Positions 19,924 through 27,032 of a stretch of 64,000 bases of DNA are shown here, piece after piece (position 1 is the first letter of the stretch; the number at the start of each line of letters is the position of its first letter). Under the pieces are notes generated by a model, which was not told where the DNA came from, did no database searches, and saw nothing but the letters and a program-made list of their open reading frames with translations. The position numbers and the translations under genes are program-made. The DNA lies in NCBI GenBank assembly GCA_000002445.1, contig CM000208.1:3040001-3104000 (forward strand), read 5' to 3'. Source of the DNA: Trypanosoma brucei. Its lineage: Eukaryota.

Positions 19924-20097
19924 CCTTTTCCACTTTCTCCCCCACCCCCAGCTGCCCTATTGCCTATTTTCCAGTGGATGAACATCAGTTCACCAAGAAG
20001 CAAGAATAGCAATTCAGCAAAAGGGAAAGCTGTACTACAGCAGTTGGCATTATAAACAAACAAATAATCGAGGCTCTTCAGTGGTGAGTTGAGACTT

Positions 20098-20109
20098 GGG
20101 GGGGGGGGG
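20098..20109. repeat. G12 homopolymer (C12 on the coding strand of the flanking genes)
   Basis: A perfect run of 12 G in the SET to ProRS intergenic region. Confidence 0.9.
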
Positions 20110-20800
20110 CGAGGAATCTTCTTCCCTGAAATCCCCTTAAAATATCACCTCCTCCGTTTTCCACTGTCGGTGATGACGAAAAATGTTTAGCGTGGCATAA
20201 TTGAAACCATTTTCCCTATTGACCACCTCTTAGCTCTACCCGTTTTACGTTACAGCGGCGGTGAACGACAAGAGTTTTAGCACTGACTCCACGTAGCCTC
20301 TCTCGTCTTCACTACTGCACTCCGAAATTAACTCGCCTGAAAACATTCCTTTTTGCTTCCGTTCCTCACACTCCAGTGTACTCCTCTTTCCTTTACTTAT
20401 TTCTTCGCACACATTCTCTCCTCAACCACCTGTCTTCTCCCACCCCCATCAGTTTGTTGAAAAACGTTTTGACCGTTCCCGTAGCGAACGGCAGCGGTTA
20501 TTTCCTCTTCTCGCGCTCACAAGACGACACCAGCAGCCACTTCCCGTCGTGTGCTCATGAGATGAAATCGATAGTGAAACCACATTATAATAATTGGACA
20601 GCGAAAGAAAAAAAAACCAACCGGCAAAAACAAGGAGAGGGAATACAATAAAGAAGTAGGGATAGGGGAAGAAACAACTGCAAGGGGAAAGAGAAAGAAG
20701 ACAGCAGTACACAATGATGCAAATTATTGACCATTGCCAGGACATCATTTCAGAGGAATATGAAAGGAAAAAAACAGGTGACTTATGTGCTGGCTCTGTT

Positions 20801-23227
20801 TCAATAGCTTCTCCCAAATAAAACCCACTTCTGCGCCGGTTTATCACAAGATCTGCATATGCACTTCTTTCCTTCCACAGATTCGGGCTGTTCAAACGGT
20901 ATGCACAGAGCCTTCGCTCCCATACTCGGCGCACGGGCGTCCTCCCGCTCCTCTTGGGTCTGCAATGCCTTAGACTCCTCAGCGCTGTCCTTCTTCACCT
21001 GATCTTCGCACGATTCGGCGCCACACCACGGCGCGAGCACGAGCGATTTATTGTTAATTGCTGCAGTGAAGTCATCCCATCGCGTTATCTTCTTTCGGTT
21101 CTCCTCCGCCTCCTTCGATGCCCTCTGGAACATGATGTTGTGAATTTCGTTGAGCAAGTCAGACATTGTCTCAGCGATGCGACCGTCCCAGGGTACGCTG
21201 CGACGTTGACCGTCACAGCGCAATACCAACGATAACTGTTTCGTTTCCATTTCCTTCGGTCCAAGTTCCACACGGACAGGCACACCCTTAAGCTCCCAGT
21301 GGTTAAAGCGCCAGCCGGGACTGTAGTTGTTGCGCAGGTCAGCCTTCACCCGGATGCCAGCGGTGCGGAGCTCCCCTTCGAGTGCCTTACACCCGTCCAG
21401 AAGCACGTTGCGCTGTTCTTGTCGAGTGTCTTTGGTGATGCCAACGGGAATTATAACAACCTGCAAGCAGGCAACGCGTGGTGGCAATACTATGCCGCGG
21501 TCATCACCGTGCACCATAATGGTAACACCAATGACACGGGTGGACAAACCCCACGAATTTTGCCACGGAATCAGGGTTGAGTCATCATTTTTGTCTGGGT
21601 CCTGGAAACAAATGTTGAACATCTTTCCGAAGTTCTGACCCAAGTTGTGACTGGTGCCACCCTGGCAGCCACGACCGACAGCTGCAATGTATGTTTCCAC
21701 TGTTGTCGTGTAGTACCCCCCAGCAAACTTCTCCTTTTCCGTCTTTTTGCCCTTCACAACTGGTACGGCAAGTAGATCAGTGTAAACAGCCGCATAGTGA
21801 TCAAGAATTTCCAAAACTTCACGGGAGCATTCCTCTTCGGTCTGCCACGCGCAGTGACCCTCTTGCCAGAGGAACTCCCGCGTACGAATGAAAGGCATAG
21901 GGTGTGAAAATTCCCATCGCACAACACTGTTCCATGCATTCAAGCGAACTGGAAGGTCCCGGTGCGAACGGATCCACTTGGCGTAGTACGGGTACATAAC
22001 TGTCTCGCTTGTGGGACGAATCGCGACGGGAACTTCGAGGTCGGATTCGCCTGCTTTGGTTACCCATGCCACCTCCGGGGCGAAGCCTTCAATGTGATCT
22101 TTTTCCCGCTCCAAGCACGTCTTGGACACGAACATAGGGAAATAGCAGTCCTCAACACCCATCGCCTCAATGCGGCTGCCAAAGAACTTTTGGACGCTTT
22201 TCCAAATAAAGAAGGACCAAGGACGCATTATGTAACAACCGGAGACGTCATAATACTCAATCATTTCCGCCTTCGTAATAACCTCCGTGTACCATTGAGA
22301 GAAGTTATCGCGTCGACTCGCCATGATTCCCAGTTTGGTTTCGCCCTTGGTGTCTCCCTTGGCTTCGCCTACCGAGGGCCCGGGCGCCACCTTTGTTTTT
22401 TTTGCATCAGTAGTGGCGGGCGCGGTGGTCGCCTTCTCTGAAAAGTCGACAACAATATATGGAAAATCAATTTTCTGCAAGAAATCCTGGAGCTGCGTCG
22501 GTGTTATTAAAGTACTCTTGTCGTTACGACATGGATGAAAAACAACTGGAAGGGTGCTGTCGACCAACGCCTTGTCCAGGGCGACTTTTACGTCCTTCGC
22601 GCCATTATTAACCAATGCAAAGGGTGTCACGCTACCCTGCACAACACCCAACTTTTCAAGTAAAAGGTCTTCCGACGCAAAGCGGAGGTCCTTCGTTTTC
22701 ATGGCGTTCTGTACCGTTTTCATGTTAGTTTTGGTTGTATGTAATGCTGAAACGAGAACCAATTCACCCTTTGAACTCTTGAGAAACAAGTTCTTGGTGC
22801 CAATGCAAGGGACCTCAAATCGACCTAGTTCCTTGTTCGCCTCTTCCACCGTGTGCTTCTCTTCATGAGAAATAGTTGGAAGACTTAAACCCAAGCTCTG
22901 CAGCACTTGCAAGAGCTCCGCCTCGCCTCGACAATTACTTGCTGACATTGTTCTGGGTGCTTTTGTGCTCTGCTCTGTTGTGGTGGTAAAGGGGGAGTTT
23001 ACACTAGGGCGCAAATTTGAACATAATGGTCCATGCACTTCACTGCGATGTCGTTGAGAGTAGCACCGCGCTGAATAACAGGCAGCAGCAGCATGACTGT
23101 TAATAACTCTCCGTGTCACTGCGGAGAACAGCAGGCCCCGCCGCTGCCTCTGGCGCAAGGCGGCGCAACTCCAACAGCGCGACAGGAGAGGACTAAGGTT
23201 ATTGCGGATACATGTTGCCATCAGCAT
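20801..23227 (-). CDS. Prolyl-tRNA synthetase (eukaryote/archaeal-type class II) with an N-terminal YbaK/ProX-like editing domain and a presequence-like N-terminus
   Basis: The track start at 23254 is TTG directly after a stop. The first ATG is at 23227 (MLMATCIRNNLSPLLSRCWSCAALRQRQRRG...), which is Arg/Ser-rich like a mitochondrial targeting signal. A YbaK-like domain follows (GTKNLFLKSSKGELVLVSALHTTKTN...). The ProRS core carries class II motifs (RRDNFSQWYTEVITKAEMIEYYDVSGCYIMRPW, FRTREFLWQEGHCAW, GGYYTTTVE...GRGCQGGTSHNLGQNF), an anticodon-binding domain, and a C-terminal zinc-binding domain characteristic of ProRS. Confidence 0.9.
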   Translation of the reverse strand: MLMATCIRNNLSPLLSRCWSCAALRQRQRRGLLFSAVTRRVINSHAAAACYSARCYSQRHRSEVHGPLCSNLRPSVNSPFTTTTEQSTKAPRTMSASNCRGEAELLQVLQSLGLSLPTISHEEKHTVEEANKELGRFEVPCIGTKNLFLKSSKGELVLVSALHTTKTNMKTVQNAMKTKDLRFASEDLLLEKLGVVQGSVTPFALVNNGAKDVKVALDKALVDSTLPVVFHPCRNDKSTLITPTQLQDFLQKIDFPYIVVDFSEKATTAPATTDAKKTKVAPGPSVGEAKGDTKGETKLGIMASRRDNFSQWYTEVITKAEMIEYYDVSGCYIMRPWSFFIWKSVQKFFGSRIEAMGVEDCYFPMFVSKTCLEREKDHIEGFAPEVAWVTKAGESDLEVPVAIRPTSETVMYPYYAKWIRSHRDLPVRLNAWNSVVRWEFSHPMPFIRTREFLWQEGHCAWQTEEECSREVLEILDHYAAVYTDLLAVPVVKGKKTEKEKFAGGYYTTTVETYIAAVGRGCQGGTSHNLGQNFGKMFNICFQDPDKNDDSTLIPWQNSWGLSTRVIGVTIMVHGDDRGIVLPPRVACLQVVIIPVGITKDTRQEQRNVLLDGCKALEGELRTAGIRVKADLRNNYSPGWRFNHWELKGVPVRVELGPKEMETKQLSLVLRCDGQRRSVPWDGRIAETMSDLLNEIHNIMFQRASKEAEENRKKITRWDDFTAAINNKSLVLAPWCGAESCEDQVKKDSAEESKALQTQEEREDARAPSMGAKALCIPFEQPESVEGKKCICRSCDKPAQKWVLFGRSY

Positions 23228-23511
23228 TGAAGCTTTTGGAGTGAACAGCACCAATCATGGTGGAAAAAGTGAAAAGGTATACGATGCACGACGAGGAAGA
23301 AAAAAAAGTACCTTCAATCACAACCTTCTTCCCCGCAGCGCATATAAAATGCGTCACGAGATTATGACGATAACGAAAAACAATAGTGCAACATGTTCAA
23401 TAGCAGATACAAAGCGAAGTGAGTAAGGGAACTGCTCAACTAACCTAGCTCCGAAAGACACAAACTGTTATCACGCCTTACTAATTCCTTCCTCACTCCG
23501 TCCAATGTGCG

Positions 23512-23982
23512 CTAGTGTACCAATGAGAACCTCATGTCTGGACTCATATGTCGCAACTCATCCAATTTATTCTTTCCGTAATTCATTTGCCACTCAATAC
23601 GAGTAATATACTTCCGCGATATGTTTGCACTCTTGTCAAATTCGGACCGTATGAATCGGCGAAGATTAGCCTGCGTTCGAAGATCCCTCATTCGTCTGGT
23701 TTCCTTGAGTAGATCACGGTAGAGTTGAAGTATTTCCCTTTGCACACCGCTAAGCCGAGGTCCCCGTGGTAATTGATGCTGCATTTCCGCAGGAGACGTT
23801 GGAGAAGCTGTGGACGCAGCGGCTGCAGAATGTCCAGGGGTCACAGAATTTCCAGAGTGTGATAAATTGTTTCCATACACTGCGTCTCTGTAAACCTTTG
23901 TCAAGGCATCAAAGGCAAAGTTGTGTGCGGTCCCTCCGCGATCGTTCACTCTGTGTCTGAGCCACTGTGAACAGTGCAGCAT
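23512..23982 (-). CDS. LYR-motif (Complex1_LYR family) protein, probably mitochondrial
   Basis: The track ORF runs up to 24117. The segment upstream of M46 is a translated polypyrimidine tract, so I moved the start to ATG 23982 (MLHCSQWLRHRV...). The C-terminal 90 aa carry the LYR signature (EILQLYRDLLKETRRMRD...RRFIRSEFDK...ITRIEWQMNYGKNKLDEL). A later start at MQHQLPRG... (89 aa) is also possible. Confidence 0.5.
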   Translation of the reverse strand: MLHCSQWLRHRVNDRGGTAHNFAFDALTKVYRDAVYGNNLSHSGNSVTPGHSAAAASTASPTSPAEMQHQLPRGPRLSGVQREILQLYRDLLKETRRMRDLRTQANLRRFIRSEFDKSANISRKYITRIEWQMNYGKNKLDELRHMSPDMRFSLVH

Positions 23983-24215: not shown

Positions 24216-27032
24216 TCAATCAAGGAAATCGTAGACTTCATTGTCAAGGAAGCCCTCCATGTTATCTGGCACATTTCTGTCAGAGTTTTTCACGCGGTCC
24301 TTACTTTGAGTCCACGGGTTGGTGACAAGAATGCCTGGGCACAGGAGCAACTCCGATGTGTGCTCCATATCCCGGAAAAACGCCACTTCCTCTTGTACAC
24401 CAACCAGGCGGAGAGGCATTTTACTGTTCTTTCCGCGGACTAAGGTCCCCACCGCTGCATCAAACGATGCCGCAGCAGCTGCGGATTGGCCGCTTTCATC
24501 ATAAAAGCGGAGCGGATGCCTGCTCTTTGCGACCGTCGACCACGGAAGGAGGTATCCAACAAAACGTGATGCCGTGTCGCCTGTGGGATTCACTATAGCG
24601 CAGGCCTCTCGCACAGACCCAGTGGTCCCAAGCCACAACCACTTTCTGCTAGAGTCACGTGTGGGCGAAAGCTCGTCCAGGAGGTCCCAGCGCGACGCAT
24701 CGCCGCTGAAGCTACGGTGTGCGGGAGGGTAAACAACATGCCTTTTCCACAACTCCGAGTCGCCACTGCCACCCGTTTGTAGTGACAAGTTCTGACCGTC
24801 GCACCCGAGAGGGTAAGACCAACCAAATGCACTAAACTCCGTACAAGTGGGGTCTGGAACCAGCATATCCAACAACGAACGGAGCACCATACAGTTAGTA
24901 GGAGCCTGCCAATGCGCTTCCTGTTCTCTGCCCCCGGGGTCACAACACGAGCAGTATTCGTGGTGCAACAACAACATTGTCCACAGAAGTCGATGGCGCA
25001 TCATCCGTTGTATGTCAAACTTCCCGGATTCGGTGCCCTCCCTTCCGCTTTGATTATGGTTCGTCAAGCTACTCCCTCCAACTTTTGTTCTCTCCCAAAC
25101 ACCGAAGAAGGCGTTTGCCGCTGTATTCGAGTAGGCTCTTCCTTTCAACCAGTTCACGCACTGCTGTGAGTGGAGCACAAGGGCCTGTATTGCTACGAGG
25201 CGCAGTCCTTCCACCACCGCTATAACATCCTGCTGGAAGGGATGCTGAAGGACGTGTCGTGCAGTGAAAAGCGGCGAGTGGCCTCCCGCGTGGTGTTCAA
25301 TATCGGATATGGCTGCGGTAATTTCGCCATTGTCACCGAGTGACCTCCACACACTGGAGTGAGATGAGCACTCATCAAGTGCATTGTAATAGCGTAGCAG
25401 TGATGTCTCAAGAACACGGAAGGCAACGTTACGAAGCAAGGTGGCAACGTCATTGCGAGAAGCAACCGTGCCTCCCGCAAGAAGCACAGATCCTTCACAA
25501 CCTTCTTCCATTAGGCTTGCTTTCTTTTCCACCATCACGGCCCTTACGAGGTGGCGCGCCGCTCGGTAAAAAAAGTGAAGCACTTGAAGTTGCTGCTGTG
25601 GGGTCTCTCCTGGGAAGCATACGTAATCACCAACCGATCCGCGTGACGGGCGCTGGCCTTTCTGCATCTTTTCTTTAATGTCGGACAGGAGCCGCTCGCA
25701 AAGGTCCTTGAGAGCATGAACACGTGGTTTATGGGGAAGTAGCGCGTAGTGGTGTTCCGCAGACTGTCCCTGTAGCCTTTGTAGCTCACTGATGGCGTTG
25801 TAAATAATTGTTTGAATGCTCCCAAACGAAAGGGGGAGTAGCGTCCCGATACCGGTATCAAGCACTTGGCTGACAAATTCGGCCAGCGGTACGATACATC
25901 GGAGGATTACAGACGGCTCGTCCAGCTTTAATTTCACTTCGACAGGCACCACGGGCGCTGAAGTCATATCTCTTTCCTCATTGCTCCCAACTCCCACTCG
26001 TGAATCAACTGACAACCGCAACAACACGCGTCGCAGCTTATCATCATCCCCAACGAAAACACTCAAAGAAGGACTGTTAGTTGCCGGACCACCAGTGCTC
26101 CGGGGTGAGGTATCAAACCAGTCGTTGTAGAACCGCGCGTAAGCAGTGCGAACGCTGCCGTGAATAAGCAACGGCGCCTCGCCCCTCCAGAAAAAACATT
26201 TTTCCAGAGAATCAGTTACAGGATTTATCGATGCGGAACAACAGCTCCTCGATTGCCCTGTTTCCGCTGGGTGGCGTTGGCCCCATAAACCAAAAAGCGC
26301 CACCATCTTGCATATGACATCGTTAACTTCTTGTTTAACCGCTTCGTCACTGATATGGAGGGACTGACGGGCGAAATTGTGCAGCAAAAACTCCAGAGAC
26401 GGCCACTCGTGGCGGGACATATCCTCCAAACTCATCTCACTGAGGTTGTTGACGTAGAGCGCCACGTGTCCAACAACTATCTGCATTGGCATATTGGCAA
26501 CACTGAGTAGCCATTCCACTATCACAGGCAGCAGCGGTCGCACCGCCGAGTGCGTCGCAACAAGGGGAATTAGAGGAGTTAGTAAACGTTCTGTTAATAG
26601 AATTATCGAACCCCCTGAGTGTCCGCATCGTATTGCCCACCCACATCCCTCCGGCCCGACCGCATATCCCAAACGCTTCGTCACTTCCACCGCCAGGAGC
26701 GGGTGGAGTTCACCACTATGACTACGGTCCAGAAACAATGTCAGTAACGCATCGACGCGACCTGGCGATTCCCACCAGCGGACCGATACCTTTTGTTGCT
26801 CACGAAGAAAACGACGCACGGCAACAGAAGTTGAATTCAAAACTACTGAAGTTTCCCCTTTTGAGCTCGTATTTGTGCTCCCTAAACGGTGACCGTTCCC
26901 TTGAGTTACCCCACCTTTTGATGGGCCGCAATGGTATCGAGTGGCGGTACCACGAGGACATACAACCGCAAAGCGAGGCACCACCCGTCGTGCTACCGGG
27001 GGGAACATGATCAGCTTTCCCCAAAACACCAT
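24216..27032 (-). CDS. Conserved hypothetical protein (938 aa) with no recognisable domain; the N-terminus resembles a mitochondrial presequence
   Basis: A long uninterrupted ORF with an ATG start that I verified (MVFWGKLIMFPPVARRVVPRFAVVCPRG...). It sits in the same orientation and spacing as its neighbours. Codon usage looks coding-like. Confidence 0.6.
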   Translation of the reverse strand: MVFWGKLIMFPPVARRVVPRFAVVCPRGTATRYHCGPSKGGVTQGNGHRLGSTNTSSKGETSVVLNSTSVAVRRFLREQQKVSVRWWESPGRVDALLTLFLDRSHSGELHPLLAVEVTKRLGYAVGPEGCGWAIRCGHSGGSIILLTERLLTPLIPLVATHSAVRPLLPVIVEWLLSVANMPMQIVVGHVALYVNNLSEMSLEDMSRHEWPSLEFLLHNFARQSLHISDEAVKQEVNDVICKMVALFGLWGQRHPAETGQSRSCCSASINPVTDSLEKCFFWRGEAPLLIHGSVRTAYARFYNDWFDTSPRSTGGPATNSPSLSVFVGDDDKLRRVLLRLSVDSRVGVGSNEERDMTSAPVVPVEVKLKLDEPSVILRCIVPLAEFVSQVLDTGIGTLLPLSFGSIQTIIYNAISELQRLQGQSAEHHYALLPHKPRVHALKDLCERLLSDIKEKMQKGQRPSRGSVGDYVCFPGETPQQQLQVLHFFYRAARHLVRAVMVEKKASLMEEGCEGSVLLAGGTVASRNDVATLLRNVAFRVLETSLLRYYNALDECSSHSSVWRSLGDNGEITAAISDIEHHAGGHSPLFTARHVLQHPFQQDVIAVVEGLRLVAIQALVLHSQQCVNWLKGRAYSNTAANAFFGVWERTKVGGSSLTNHNQSGREGTESGKFDIQRMMRHRLLWTMLLLHHEYCSCCDPGGREQEAHWQAPTNCMVLRSLLDMLVPDPTCTEFSAFGWSYPLGCDGQNLSLQTGGSGDSELWKRHVVYPPAHRSFSGDASRWDLLDELSPTRDSSRKWLWLGTTGSVREACAIVNPTGDTASRFVGYLLPWSTVAKSRHPLRFYDESGQSAAAAASFDAAVGTLVRGKNSKMPLRLVGVQEEVAFFRDMEHTSELLLCPGILVTNPWTQSKDRVKNSDRNVPDNMEGFLDNEVYDFLD

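What the first reader, a model, noticed from the sequence alone, without database searches (positions are those of the whole stretch)
20801..23254. Prolyl-tRNA synthetase with a presequence-like N-terminus and an internal Met that could start a cytosolic isoform; a possible case of dual targeting by alternative trans-splicing
The open frame extends upstream to a stop at 23257-23255, but the first ATG is at 23227. From there the protein begins MLMATCIRNNLSPLLSRCWSCAALRQRQRRGLL..., which is Arg/Ser/Ala-rich, amphipathic and non-acidic, like a mitochondrial targeting peptide. About 100 residues later comes MSASNCRGEAELLQVLQ..., just ahead of the YbaK-like domain. Trypanosomes encode most aminoacyl-tRNA synthetases once and use them in both compartments. 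A long-plus-short isoform arrangement via two splice-acceptor sites would fit. Fusion of a YbaK trans-editing domain to ProRS is also notable.
Basis: partly seen in the sequence, partly recalled or inferred. Interest (0 to 1): 0.5.

Follow-up and report, generated by a model that had tools for sequence, protein, structure and literature searches.

The report
Dual-targeted trypanosome prolyl-tRNA synthetase gene
This is the single prolyl-tRNA synthetase gene of Trypanosoma brucei; published splice-site maps from 2010 onward already indicate it makes a long, mitochondrion-targeted form and a short cytosolic form by adding the spliced leader at two sites, so the finding is correct but already described.

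Summary
The ORF is 20801-23227 (-), 808 aa, with an in-frame TGA at 23257-23255. The N-terminus is basic and free of acidic residues. The second in-frame start is Met94 (ATG 22948-22946), not about residue 100. The window is T. brucei TREU927 chromosome 10 (offset 3,040,000), and the gene is Tb927.10.12890, formerly Tb10.389.0630.

- Nilsson 2010 lists Pro-RS among the synthetases where alternative trans-splicing could give dual localisation (MITOPROT 0.98). For the Pro-RS group it says the major splice site is internal and a small fraction lies upstream of the first AUG.
- Kolev 2010 maps the 5'-most spliced-leader site to window 23232. That is the base after the AG I predicted from sequence alone.
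- Rettig 2012, Parrot 2021 and a 2024 biochemical paper repeat the model.
- The 2024 paper shows that residues 94-260 are an active ProXp-ala editing domain.

My additions:
- A pyrimidine tract followed by ACAGAGCAG, with AGs 27, 25 and 22 nt before the internal ATG, is conserved in seven Trypanosoma-type sequences.
- The 93-aa extension stays open and basic although it is only 24-33% identical between species.
- Leishmaniinae use two tandem genes instead.

I found no direct demonstration that the long ProRS isoform is imported into mitochondria.

The parts
20801..23227 (-). Long ORF of prolyl-tRNA synthetase (808 aa plus stop), the predicted mitochondrial precursor. It corresponds to Tb927.10.12890 / Tb10.389.0630.
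   Evidence: 99% identical to the T. b. gambiense protein. Kolev 2010 Table S1 gives ORF 3063227..3060801 on chr10 v4, which equals the window coordinates plus 3,040,000.
22949..23227 (-). The 93 codons that encode the presequence-like N-terminal extension, present only in the long isoform.
   Evidence: Net charge +8 and no acidic residue in the first 40 aa. Frame kept open in 7 species, with 24-33% aa identity against 74-81% for the rest of the protein. MITOPROT 0.98. TargetP and MitoFates positive. Called an MTS in PMC11286415.
23255..23257 (-). In-frame TGA that closes the frame upstream of the first ATG.
   Evidence: the stop codon starts 30 nt upstream of the ATG.
23262..23308 (-). Two 16-nt polypyrimidine tracts (23308-23293 and 23277-23262) that serve the upstream acceptor.
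23232..23234 (-). Upstream trans-splice acceptor. The AG is at 23234-23233 and the first mRNA base is 23232, giving a 5-nt 5'UTR before AUG1. This is the minor site, which yields the long mRNA.
   Evidence: It is the first AG after the polypyrimidine tracts. [quoted passage not shown]
22988..22997 (-). Internal polypyrimidine tract CTCCCCCTTT, lying inside the presequence-coding region.
   Evidence: The homologous tract is 13-25 nt long in five other Trypanosoma species, where it is the most pyrimidine-rich 30-nt window of the whole CDS.
22953..22976 (-). Cluster of internal AG acceptors, with the G at 27, 25, 22, 20, 12 and 5 nt before the internal ATG. This is the predicted major site, which yields the short mRNA. 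The first AG predicts an mRNA 5' end at 22974.
   Evidence: ACAGAGCAG with AGs at -27/-25/-22 is conserved in T. cruzi, T. rangeli, T. grayi, T. theileri, T. melophagium and L010. Published data say the major site is internal. The exact published coordinate could not be retrieved.
22946..22948 (-). Internal ATG (Met94), the start of the 715-aa cytosolic isoform MSASNCRGE...
   Evidence: The Met and its context are conserved in all trypanosomatid orthologues. The 715-aa form is the annotated CDS in assembly GCA_001457755.2. It is the first AUG downstream of any acceptor between 23023 and 22949.
22481..22867 (-). ProXp-ala-type aminoacyl-tRNA editing domain (Pfam tRNA_edit, residues 121-249).
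   Evidence: Pfam E=8e-29. Best solved relative is C. crescentus ProXp-ala 5vxb, E=3e-27. Ala-tRNAPro deacylation was measured for the T. brucei enzyme (PMC11286415).
20804..22324 (-). Archaeal/eukaryotic-type ProRS core, anticodon-binding domain and C-terminal zinc domain (residues 302-808).
   Evidence: TIGR00408 at 570 bits against a cut-off of 437. Pfam domains.
20079..20800 (-). 3'UTR running to the 3'-most mapped polyadenylation site (722 nt).
   Evidence: Kolev 2010 Tables S1 and S13 give 3060079 and 722 nt.
23199..23258 (-). Out-of-frame upstream ATG (23258) with a 19-codon ORF that overlaps AUG1. It is left out of the mRNA when splicing occurs at 23232.

Best explanation
The gene is the single T. 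brucei prolyl-tRNA synthetase. It consists of a ProXp-ala editing domain fused to a eukaryotic-type ProRS, preceded by 93 codons of mitochondrial presequence.

The polycistronic precursor RNA receives the spliced leader at one of two places:
- Splicing at the AG at 23234-23233 (minor site) gives an mRNA that starts at 23232. Its first AUG (23227) yields the 808-aa precursor. That precursor is imported into the mitochondrion through its basic N-terminus and then trimmed.
- Splicing at the AG cluster about 20-27 nt before the internal ATG (major site) removes AUG1 and the presequence. The first AUG is then 22948, which yields the 715-aa cytosolic enzyme.

Shown, from published data plus sequence: both classes of acceptor site, both in-frame starts, and the presequence-like composition with its conservation. 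Inferred: that the long protein is actually made, imported and processed, and that the ratio of the two forms is set by splice-site choice and mRNA stability.
For: Published mapping:
- Nilsson 2010 report an internal major site and an upstream minor site for the group that includes Pro-RS. They give MITOPROT 0.98 and 145 TPM at the major site.
- Kolev 2010 place the 5'-most SL site at window 23232 and list the gene among ORFs with an acceptor inside the ORF.
- Rettig 2012 proved this mechanism for IleRS and name ProRS as a likely further case.

Sequence:
- The first AG after two 16-nt polypyrimidine tracts is at 23234-23233, which matches the mapped site exactly.
- An internal polypyrimidine tract is followed by AGs at -27/-25/-22 from the internal ATG. 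These are conserved at identical positions in seven Trypanosoma-type sequences.
- At four-fold degenerate third positions in that block, 48 of 55 are pyrimidines, against 1099 of 1997 in the mature enzyme (Fisher p=6e-7).
- Five AUGs lie between AUG1 and Met94 (an in-frame one at 23221, and 23213, 23094, 23034 and 23024), so leaky scanning on the long mRNA is unlikely to reach Met94.

Presequence:
- Net charge is +4 to +8 in the first 40 aa of all the N-terminally extended orthologues examined. The frame is open in all seven genomic loci tested, despite 24-33% identity among the six Trypanosoma orthologues compared.
- TargetP and MitoFates are positive.

Comparative: Leishmania and Leptomonas split the two roles between tandem genes, one with and one without the basic extension.
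Against: - I found no experiment showing import or processing of the long ProRS isoform. Peikert 2017 found 15 synthetases in the importome, but the table that would show whether ProRS is among them was truncated in storage. In crude organelle fractions the ATOM40-knockdown ratio for ProRS was 0.85 and not significant.
- By sequence rules the upstream signal (two 16-nt tracts) looks stronger than the 10-nt internal tract of T. brucei, yet the internal site is reported as the major one.
- The exact internal coordinate and the minor-site tag count could not be retrieved.
- My hydrophobic-moment measure gives no clear amphipathic helix.
- The current TriTrypDB CDS reportedly starts at Met94.
Confidence: 0.8

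Rival explanations
1. There is only one functional product. The real start is Met94, and the upstream 93 codons are 5' UTR or precursor sequence that happens to be open. Mitochondrial ProRS activity would come from the short protein through an internal or cryptic signal, or from import of tRNA that is already charged.
For: The major splice site is internal. Kolev lists the start codon as misannotated. TriTrypDB reportedly annotates the short CDS, and another assembly annotates 715 aa. Parrot 2021 discuss internal or cryptic targeting signals for other synthetases.
Against: An SL site is mapped 5 nt upstream of AUG1. The frame is open in all seven species examined, with 2-5 stops in each of the other frames. 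The basic, acid-poor composition is conserved although the sequence is not. Three predictors call it a presequence. In Leishmaniinae a dedicated paralogue keeps such an extension.
Confidence: 0.1
2. Both isoforms come from one long mRNA by alternative translation initiation (leaky scanning or reinitiation) rather than by alternative trans-splicing.
For: AUG1 lies only 5 nt after the spliced-leader junction. Alternative initiation is the mechanism used for dual targeting of synthetases in other eukaryotes (for example C. elegans ThrRS, abstract).
Against: Five AUGs, four of them opening other short frames or in frame at Met3, lie between AUG1 and Met94. Internal SL-addition sites are reported as the major 5' ends. 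The internal acceptor signal is conserved at the nucleotide level.
Confidence: 0.05
3. The long isoform is made, but its extension directs it somewhere other than the mitochondrial matrix, or has a regulatory role such as controlling assembly into the multi-synthetase complex.
For: The extension is long (93 aa), Cys-rich and predicted to be disordered. No localisation experiment was found.
Against: Its composition and three predictors fit a matrix presequence. The mitochondrion encodes no tRNAs or synthetases, and T. brucei has only one ProRS gene.
Confidence: 0.05

Closest known systems
T. brucei isoleucyl-tRNA synthetase, dually targeted by alternative trans-splicing (Rettig et al. 2012, PMC3273800)
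   Same: A single gene with two in-frame AUGs separated by a presequence. A minor upstream and a major internal spliced-leader site give a long mitochondrial form and a short, more abundant cytosolic form. ProRS is named in that paper as a likely parallel case.
   Different: For IleRS the two mRNAs, the two proteins, their locations and compartment-specific tRNA charging were all shown experimentally. For ProRS only the splice-site maps and the predictions exist.
Leishmania and Leptomonas tandem ProRS paralogues (LmjF.18.1210 / LmjF.18.1220; Parrot et al. 2021, Gowri et al. 2012)
   Same: Same domain architecture and same chromosomal neighbourhood (LYR-family gene upstream). One form carries an 86-99-aa basic N-terminal extension and the other does not.
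   Different: The two forms are encoded by two genes rather than two mRNAs of one gene. The editing domains have diverged (36-58% identity), while about 1.7 kb of the core is identical at the nucleotide level.
ProXp-ala trans-editing proteins and ProXp-ala-ProRS fusions (C. crescentus ProXp-ala 5vxb; P. falciparum and fungal ProRS)
   Same: The N-terminal domain is most similar to ProXp-ala (E=3e-27). The T. brucei enzyme deacylates Ala-tRNAPro. The same fusion occurs in euglenids, fungi and Perkinsus.
   Different: In bacteria, plants and metazoa the domain is free-standing. It is not YbaK proper, which is the Cys-tRNAPro deacylase.
Metazoan bifunctional Glu-Pro tRNA synthetase (EPRS), the source of the database name 'bifunctional aminoacyl-tRNA synthetase'
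   Same: The ProRS core and the C-terminal zinc domain are of the same eukaryotic type.
   Different: No GluRS domain is present. The name 'bifunctional' is a carried-over misnomer.

Membership tests
Archaeal/eukaryotic-type class II prolyl-tRNA synthetase (TIGR00408 proS_fam_I) | Full-length match above the curated cut-off, including the class II core, the HGTP anticodon domain and the ProRS-C_1 domain | tested here: met
   TIGR00408 scores 569.9 bits against a cut-off of 437 over residues 302-808. Pfam PF00587, PF03129 and PF09180 are all above their cut-offs.
INS/YbaK superfamily, ProXp-ala cluster | tRNA_edit fold with closest similarity to ProXp-ala rather than to YbaK | tested here: met
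   PF04073 E=8e-29. The four solved relatives found are 5vxb ProXp-ala, 1vjf, 1vki and human PRDXDD1 8huz, and no YbaK chain is among them.
INS/YbaK superfamily, ProXp-ala cluster | Ala-tRNAPro deacylase activity | not testable with these tools
   Measured for recombinant T. brucei ProRS and for its isolated domain in PMC11286415.
Dual targeting by alternative trans-splicing (IleRS paradigm) | A single gene for the enzyme in the genome | tested here: inconclusive
   The window holds one copy, and the homologue search returned one T. brucei cluster. The literature states that Trypanosoma has a single gene. I did not scan the whole genome.
Dual targeting by alternative trans-splicing (IleRS paradigm) | Two in-frame AUGs separated by a presequence-like segment | tested here: met
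   ATG at 23227 and ATG at 22948, 93 codons apart. Net charge +8 and no acidic residue in the first 40 aa.
Dual targeting by alternative trans-splicing (IleRS paradigm) | A spliced-leader acceptor upstream of AUG1 | tested here: met
   Polypyrimidine tracts followed by a first AG at 23234-23233. This coincides with the mapped SL site chr10:3063232.
Dual targeting by alternative trans-splicing (IleRS paradigm) | A spliced-leader acceptor between AUG1 and AUG2, with AUG2 the first AUG downstream of it | tested here: met
   The signal is present and conserved in seven sequences. No AUG lies between 23023 and 22949. Use of the site is reported, but the exact coordinate was not retrievable.
Dual targeting by alternative trans-splicing (IleRS paradigm) | The long protein is in mitochondria, the short one in the cytosol, and each is needed for tRNA charging in its compartment | not testable with these tools
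   No such experiment on ProRS was found. The importome table that could show it was truncated in storage.
N-terminal mitochondrial matrix presequence | Positively charged, lacking acidic residues, rich in Arg, Ser, Ala and Leu | tested here: met
   It ranks first of the 21 long ORFs in the window, and the property is conserved in all the N-terminally extended orthologues examined.
N-terminal mitochondrial matrix presequence | Amphipathic helix | tested here: inconclusive
   The maximum helical hydrophobic moment is 0.31 over 18 residues, which does not stand out. Dedicated predictors are positive in the literature: MITOPROT 0.98, TargetP and MitoFates.
Bifunctional Glu-Pro tRNA synthetase (EPRS) | A GluRS catalytic domain fused to ProRS | tested here: not met
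   Pfam finds only the tRNA_edit domain and the ProRS domains.

The most novel reading that the evidence does not exclude
The polypyrimidine-plus-ACAGAGCAG block just before Met94 is a conserved dual-use element. It encodes the last residues of the presequence (an Arg two residues before Met94 could also act as a processing site). At the same time it is the internal splice acceptor that sets the cytosol-to-mitochondrion ratio of ProRS throughout the genus Trypanosoma. Leishmaniinae escaped this constraint by tandem duplication, with gene conversion still homogenising about 1.7 kb of the enzyme core. Neither the nucleotide-level conservation nor the conversion tract appears in the papers I read.
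Probability: 0.45. Interest if true: 0.3.

Novelty: already known. Interest (0 to 1): 0.15.

Why it matters
Trypanosome mitochondria encode no tRNAs and no synthetases, so each cytosolic synthetase gene must also supply the organelle. Alternative trans-splicing is the demonstrated solution for IleRS, and ProRS is one of the standard further candidates. ProRS is also a drug target (halofuginone class), so it matters for inhibitor and knock-down studies which isoform is being expressed. For this scan the result is mainly a calibration point. The finding itself adds nothing new.

Tried and rejected
- Rettig 2012 Supplementary Table S1 and the Siegel 2010 supplements, sought for splice coordinates, are not held.
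- Kolev 2010 Table S4 (all acceptor sites) and Peikert 2017 Suppl. Data 1 (pure-mitochondria ATOM40 data) were truncated in storage. Neither the exact internal site nor ProRS's importome status could be read.
- Cestari 2013 and Kalidas 2014 (localisation and RNAi of T. brucei synthetases) are not held.
- I looked for RNA-derived contigs carrying a spliced-leader junction by exact-protein lookup of the short and long forms and of P0008. This returned only a genome record annotating the 715-aa form and an adapter-bearing contig with no spliced leader.
- A helical hydrophobic-moment test of amphipathicity was uninformative.
- I rejected the 'bifunctional' (Glu-Pro) reading because there is no GluRS domain.
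- I rejected YbaK proper because the best matches are ProXp-ala.
- I consider leaky scanning unlikely because five AUGs intervene.
Full report
**What is there.** The minus-strand ORF 20801-23254 is closed upstream by TGA at 23257-23255. Its first ATG is at 23227, which gives an 808-aa protein.
- Pfam finds an aminoacyl-tRNA editing domain (tRNA_edit, residues 121-249), then the class II core, the HGTP anticodon domain and the ProRS C-terminal domain.
- NCBIfam places residues 302-808 in the archaeal/eukaryotic ProRS equivalog TIGR00408, at 570 bits against a cut-off of 437.
- There is no GluRS domain, so the database name 'bifunctional aminoacyl-tRNA synthetase' is a misnomer.

**Identity of the gene.** The protein is 99% identical to the T. 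brucei gambiense orthologue. Kolev et al. 2010 Table S1 gives Tb10.389.0630 as ORF 3063227..3060801 on chromosome 10. That is exactly the window coordinates plus 3,040,000. The window is therefore T. brucei TREU927 chr10:3,040,001-3,104,000, and the gene is Tb927.10.12890. Peikert 2017 Suppl. Data 2 confirms that the two identifiers are the same gene.

**Checking the observation.**
- The N-terminus reads as quoted. The second start, MSASNCRGE, is residue 94 (ATG 22948-22946), so the extension is 93 aa rather than about 100.
- The first 40 residues contain 8 Arg and no acidic residue. The first Asp/Glu is at position 63. This is the most basic N-terminus of the 21 long ORFs in the window. The short form begins with a net charge of -4.
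- My helical hydrophobic-moment measure (0.31) does not single it out as amphipathic, so that word in the finding is not confirmed by my test.
- The 279-nt extension has no stop in frame and 3 and 5 stops in the other two frames. The probability of no stop after shuffling is 0.02.

**Splice signals in the window.**
- Upstream: two 16-nt polypyrimidine tracts (23308-23293 and 23277-23262) are followed by no AG until 23234-23233, 6 nt before the first ATG. A spliced leader added there gives a 5-nt 5' UTR and leaves out the out-of-frame upstream ATG at 23258.
- Internal: a 10-nt tract (22997-22988) is followed by AGs whose G lies 27, 25, 22, 20, 12 and 5 nt before the internal ATG. No ATG lies between 23023 and 22949, so any mRNA spliced in that cluster starts translation at Met94.
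- Between AUG1 and Met94 there are five other AUGs: Met3 in frame, plus four that open short out-of-frame ORFs. Leaky scanning on the long mRNA is therefore unlikely to be the source of the short form.

**Published experimental mapping.** It agrees with these signals.
- Kolev 2010 report the 5'-most spliced-leader addition site of this gene at chr10:3063232, which is window 23232. That is the base immediately after the AG I had predicted. They report the 3'-most poly(A) site at window 20079.
[quoted passage not shown] It is my inference that the gene is listed there because its main site is internal.
- Nilsson et al. [quoted passage not shown] - Rettig et al. 2012 proved this mechanism for IleRS and named ProRS as a probable further case.
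- Parrot et al. 2021 and a 2024 biochemical study repeat the model. The 2024 study treats residues 1-93 as the MTS and notes that TriTrypDB's CDS lacks it. It also shows that residues 94-260 are an active ProXp-ala Ala-tRNAPro deacylase.
- Peikert 2017 mark the protein positive by TargetP and MitoFates.

**Comparative evidence generated here.** I fetched the orthologous loci of T. cruzi, T. rangeli, T. grayi, T. theileri, T. melophagium, an unnamed relative (L008) and a Logan contig (L010).
- All the genome loci long enough to show the upstream gene keep a Complex1_LYR gene upstream of ProRS.
- In all seven species tested (T. brucei plus six of these relatives), there is an in-frame upstream ATG 76-93 codons before the conserved MS(A/S)(S/A)(D/N)C(R/K)G start. 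There are no stops in frame and 2-5 stops in each other frame. L010 has a 79-codon equivalent by eye.
- The extensions of six Trypanosoma orthologues (including the T. congolense protein) are only 24-33% identical to the T. brucei one, against 74-81% for the rest of the protein. In all the N-terminally extended orthologues examined the first 40 residues are net positive, +4 to +8.
- Between the window and T. b. gambiense, 5 of the 7 amino-acid differences fall in the 93-aa extension.
- The one strongly conserved stretch of the extension is at the nucleotide level. A 13-25-nt pyrimidine tract is followed by ACAGAGCAG, which places AGs at exactly -27, -25 and -22 from the internal ATG in T. brucei, the five named relatives and L010.
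- In the five non-brucei species this is the most pyrimidine-rich 30-nt window of the whole 2.4-kb CDS.
- At four-fold degenerate third positions in the block, 48 of 55 are pyrimidines, against 1099 of 1997 in the mature enzyme (Fisher p=6e-7). The data are pooled and the species are not independent.
- This pattern points to selection on the RNA signal and not only on the peptide.
- In T. brucei the tract is the weakest of the set.

**Leishmaniinae.** L. major and Leptomonas pyrrhocoris carry two tandem ProRS genes downstream of the LYR gene.
- The first copy has an in-frame upstream Met 87 or 99 codons before the conserved start, with a basic extension. The second copy has no upstream Met.
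- This fits Parrot 2021, who assign mitochondrial and cytosolic isoforms to separate genes in Leishmania and a single gene in Trypanosoma.

**Mechanism.** One gene produces two mRNAs through the choice of spliced-leader acceptor.
- The long mRNA encodes the mitochondrial precursor. The short, more abundant mRNA encodes the cytosolic enzyme.
- Shown by published data and sequence: the two acceptor classes, the two starts, the presequence-like extension and its conservation.
- Inferred: translation, import and processing of the long form.
- An Arg two residues before Met94 (PRT|M) is present as Arg or Lys in five of seven Trypanosoma sequences. It suggests, as inference only, that processing could yield a mature mitochondrial enzyme almost identical to the cytosolic one.

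**Weak points.**
- I found no localisation or import experiment for ProRS itself.
- The internal site's exact coordinate and the minor-site counts were not retrievable.
- The T. brucei internal tract looks weaker than the upstream one although it is reported as the major site. Differential mRNA stability, as shown for IleRS, may explain this.

**Verdict.** The ProXp-ala-ProRS fusion is also well known and has been characterised biochemically. Novelty: already known. Interest: low.

Noticed in passing
L006 6001-8196 and 10455-12650; L007 6001-8172 and 9381-11576: The tandem ProRS paralogues of L. major and Leptomonas pyrrhocoris share a perfectly identical DNA tract of about 1.74 kb. It runs 1722 or 1613 nt up to the stop codon and 22 or 120 nt beyond it, with abrupt divergence at both ends. 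The editing domains are only 36-58% identical. This points to ongoing gene conversion of the enzyme core, or to assembly collapse. Gowri 2012 called the copies 'identical' and both cytosolic, which does not hold for the N-terminal part.
   Followed up: partly
window 23512-23982 (-): A 156-aa Complex1_LYR-family protein (Pfam E=3.5e-11) lies immediately upstream of ProRS. The LYR-then-ProRS gene order is conserved in the trypanosomatid genome loci that extend far enough upstream.
   Followed up: partly
window 24216-27032 (-): A 938-aa ORF with no Pfam match also has a presequence-like N-terminus (net charge +7 in the first 40 aa, first acidic residue at position 60). It may be another mitochondrial protein in the same transcription unit.
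   Followed up: no
window 23199-23258 (-): An out-of-frame upstream ATG opens a 19-codon ORF that overlaps the first ProRS ATG. It would be included only in transcripts spliced further upstream than 23232, where it could dampen translation of the long form.
   Followed up: no
window 22988-22997 compared with L001-L005 and L010: The internal pyrimidine tract is 13-25 nt long in the five other named Trypanosoma species examined and only 10 nt in T. brucei. This suggests lineage-specific weakening of the internal acceptor, even though that site is reported as the major one in T. brucei.
   Followed up: partly
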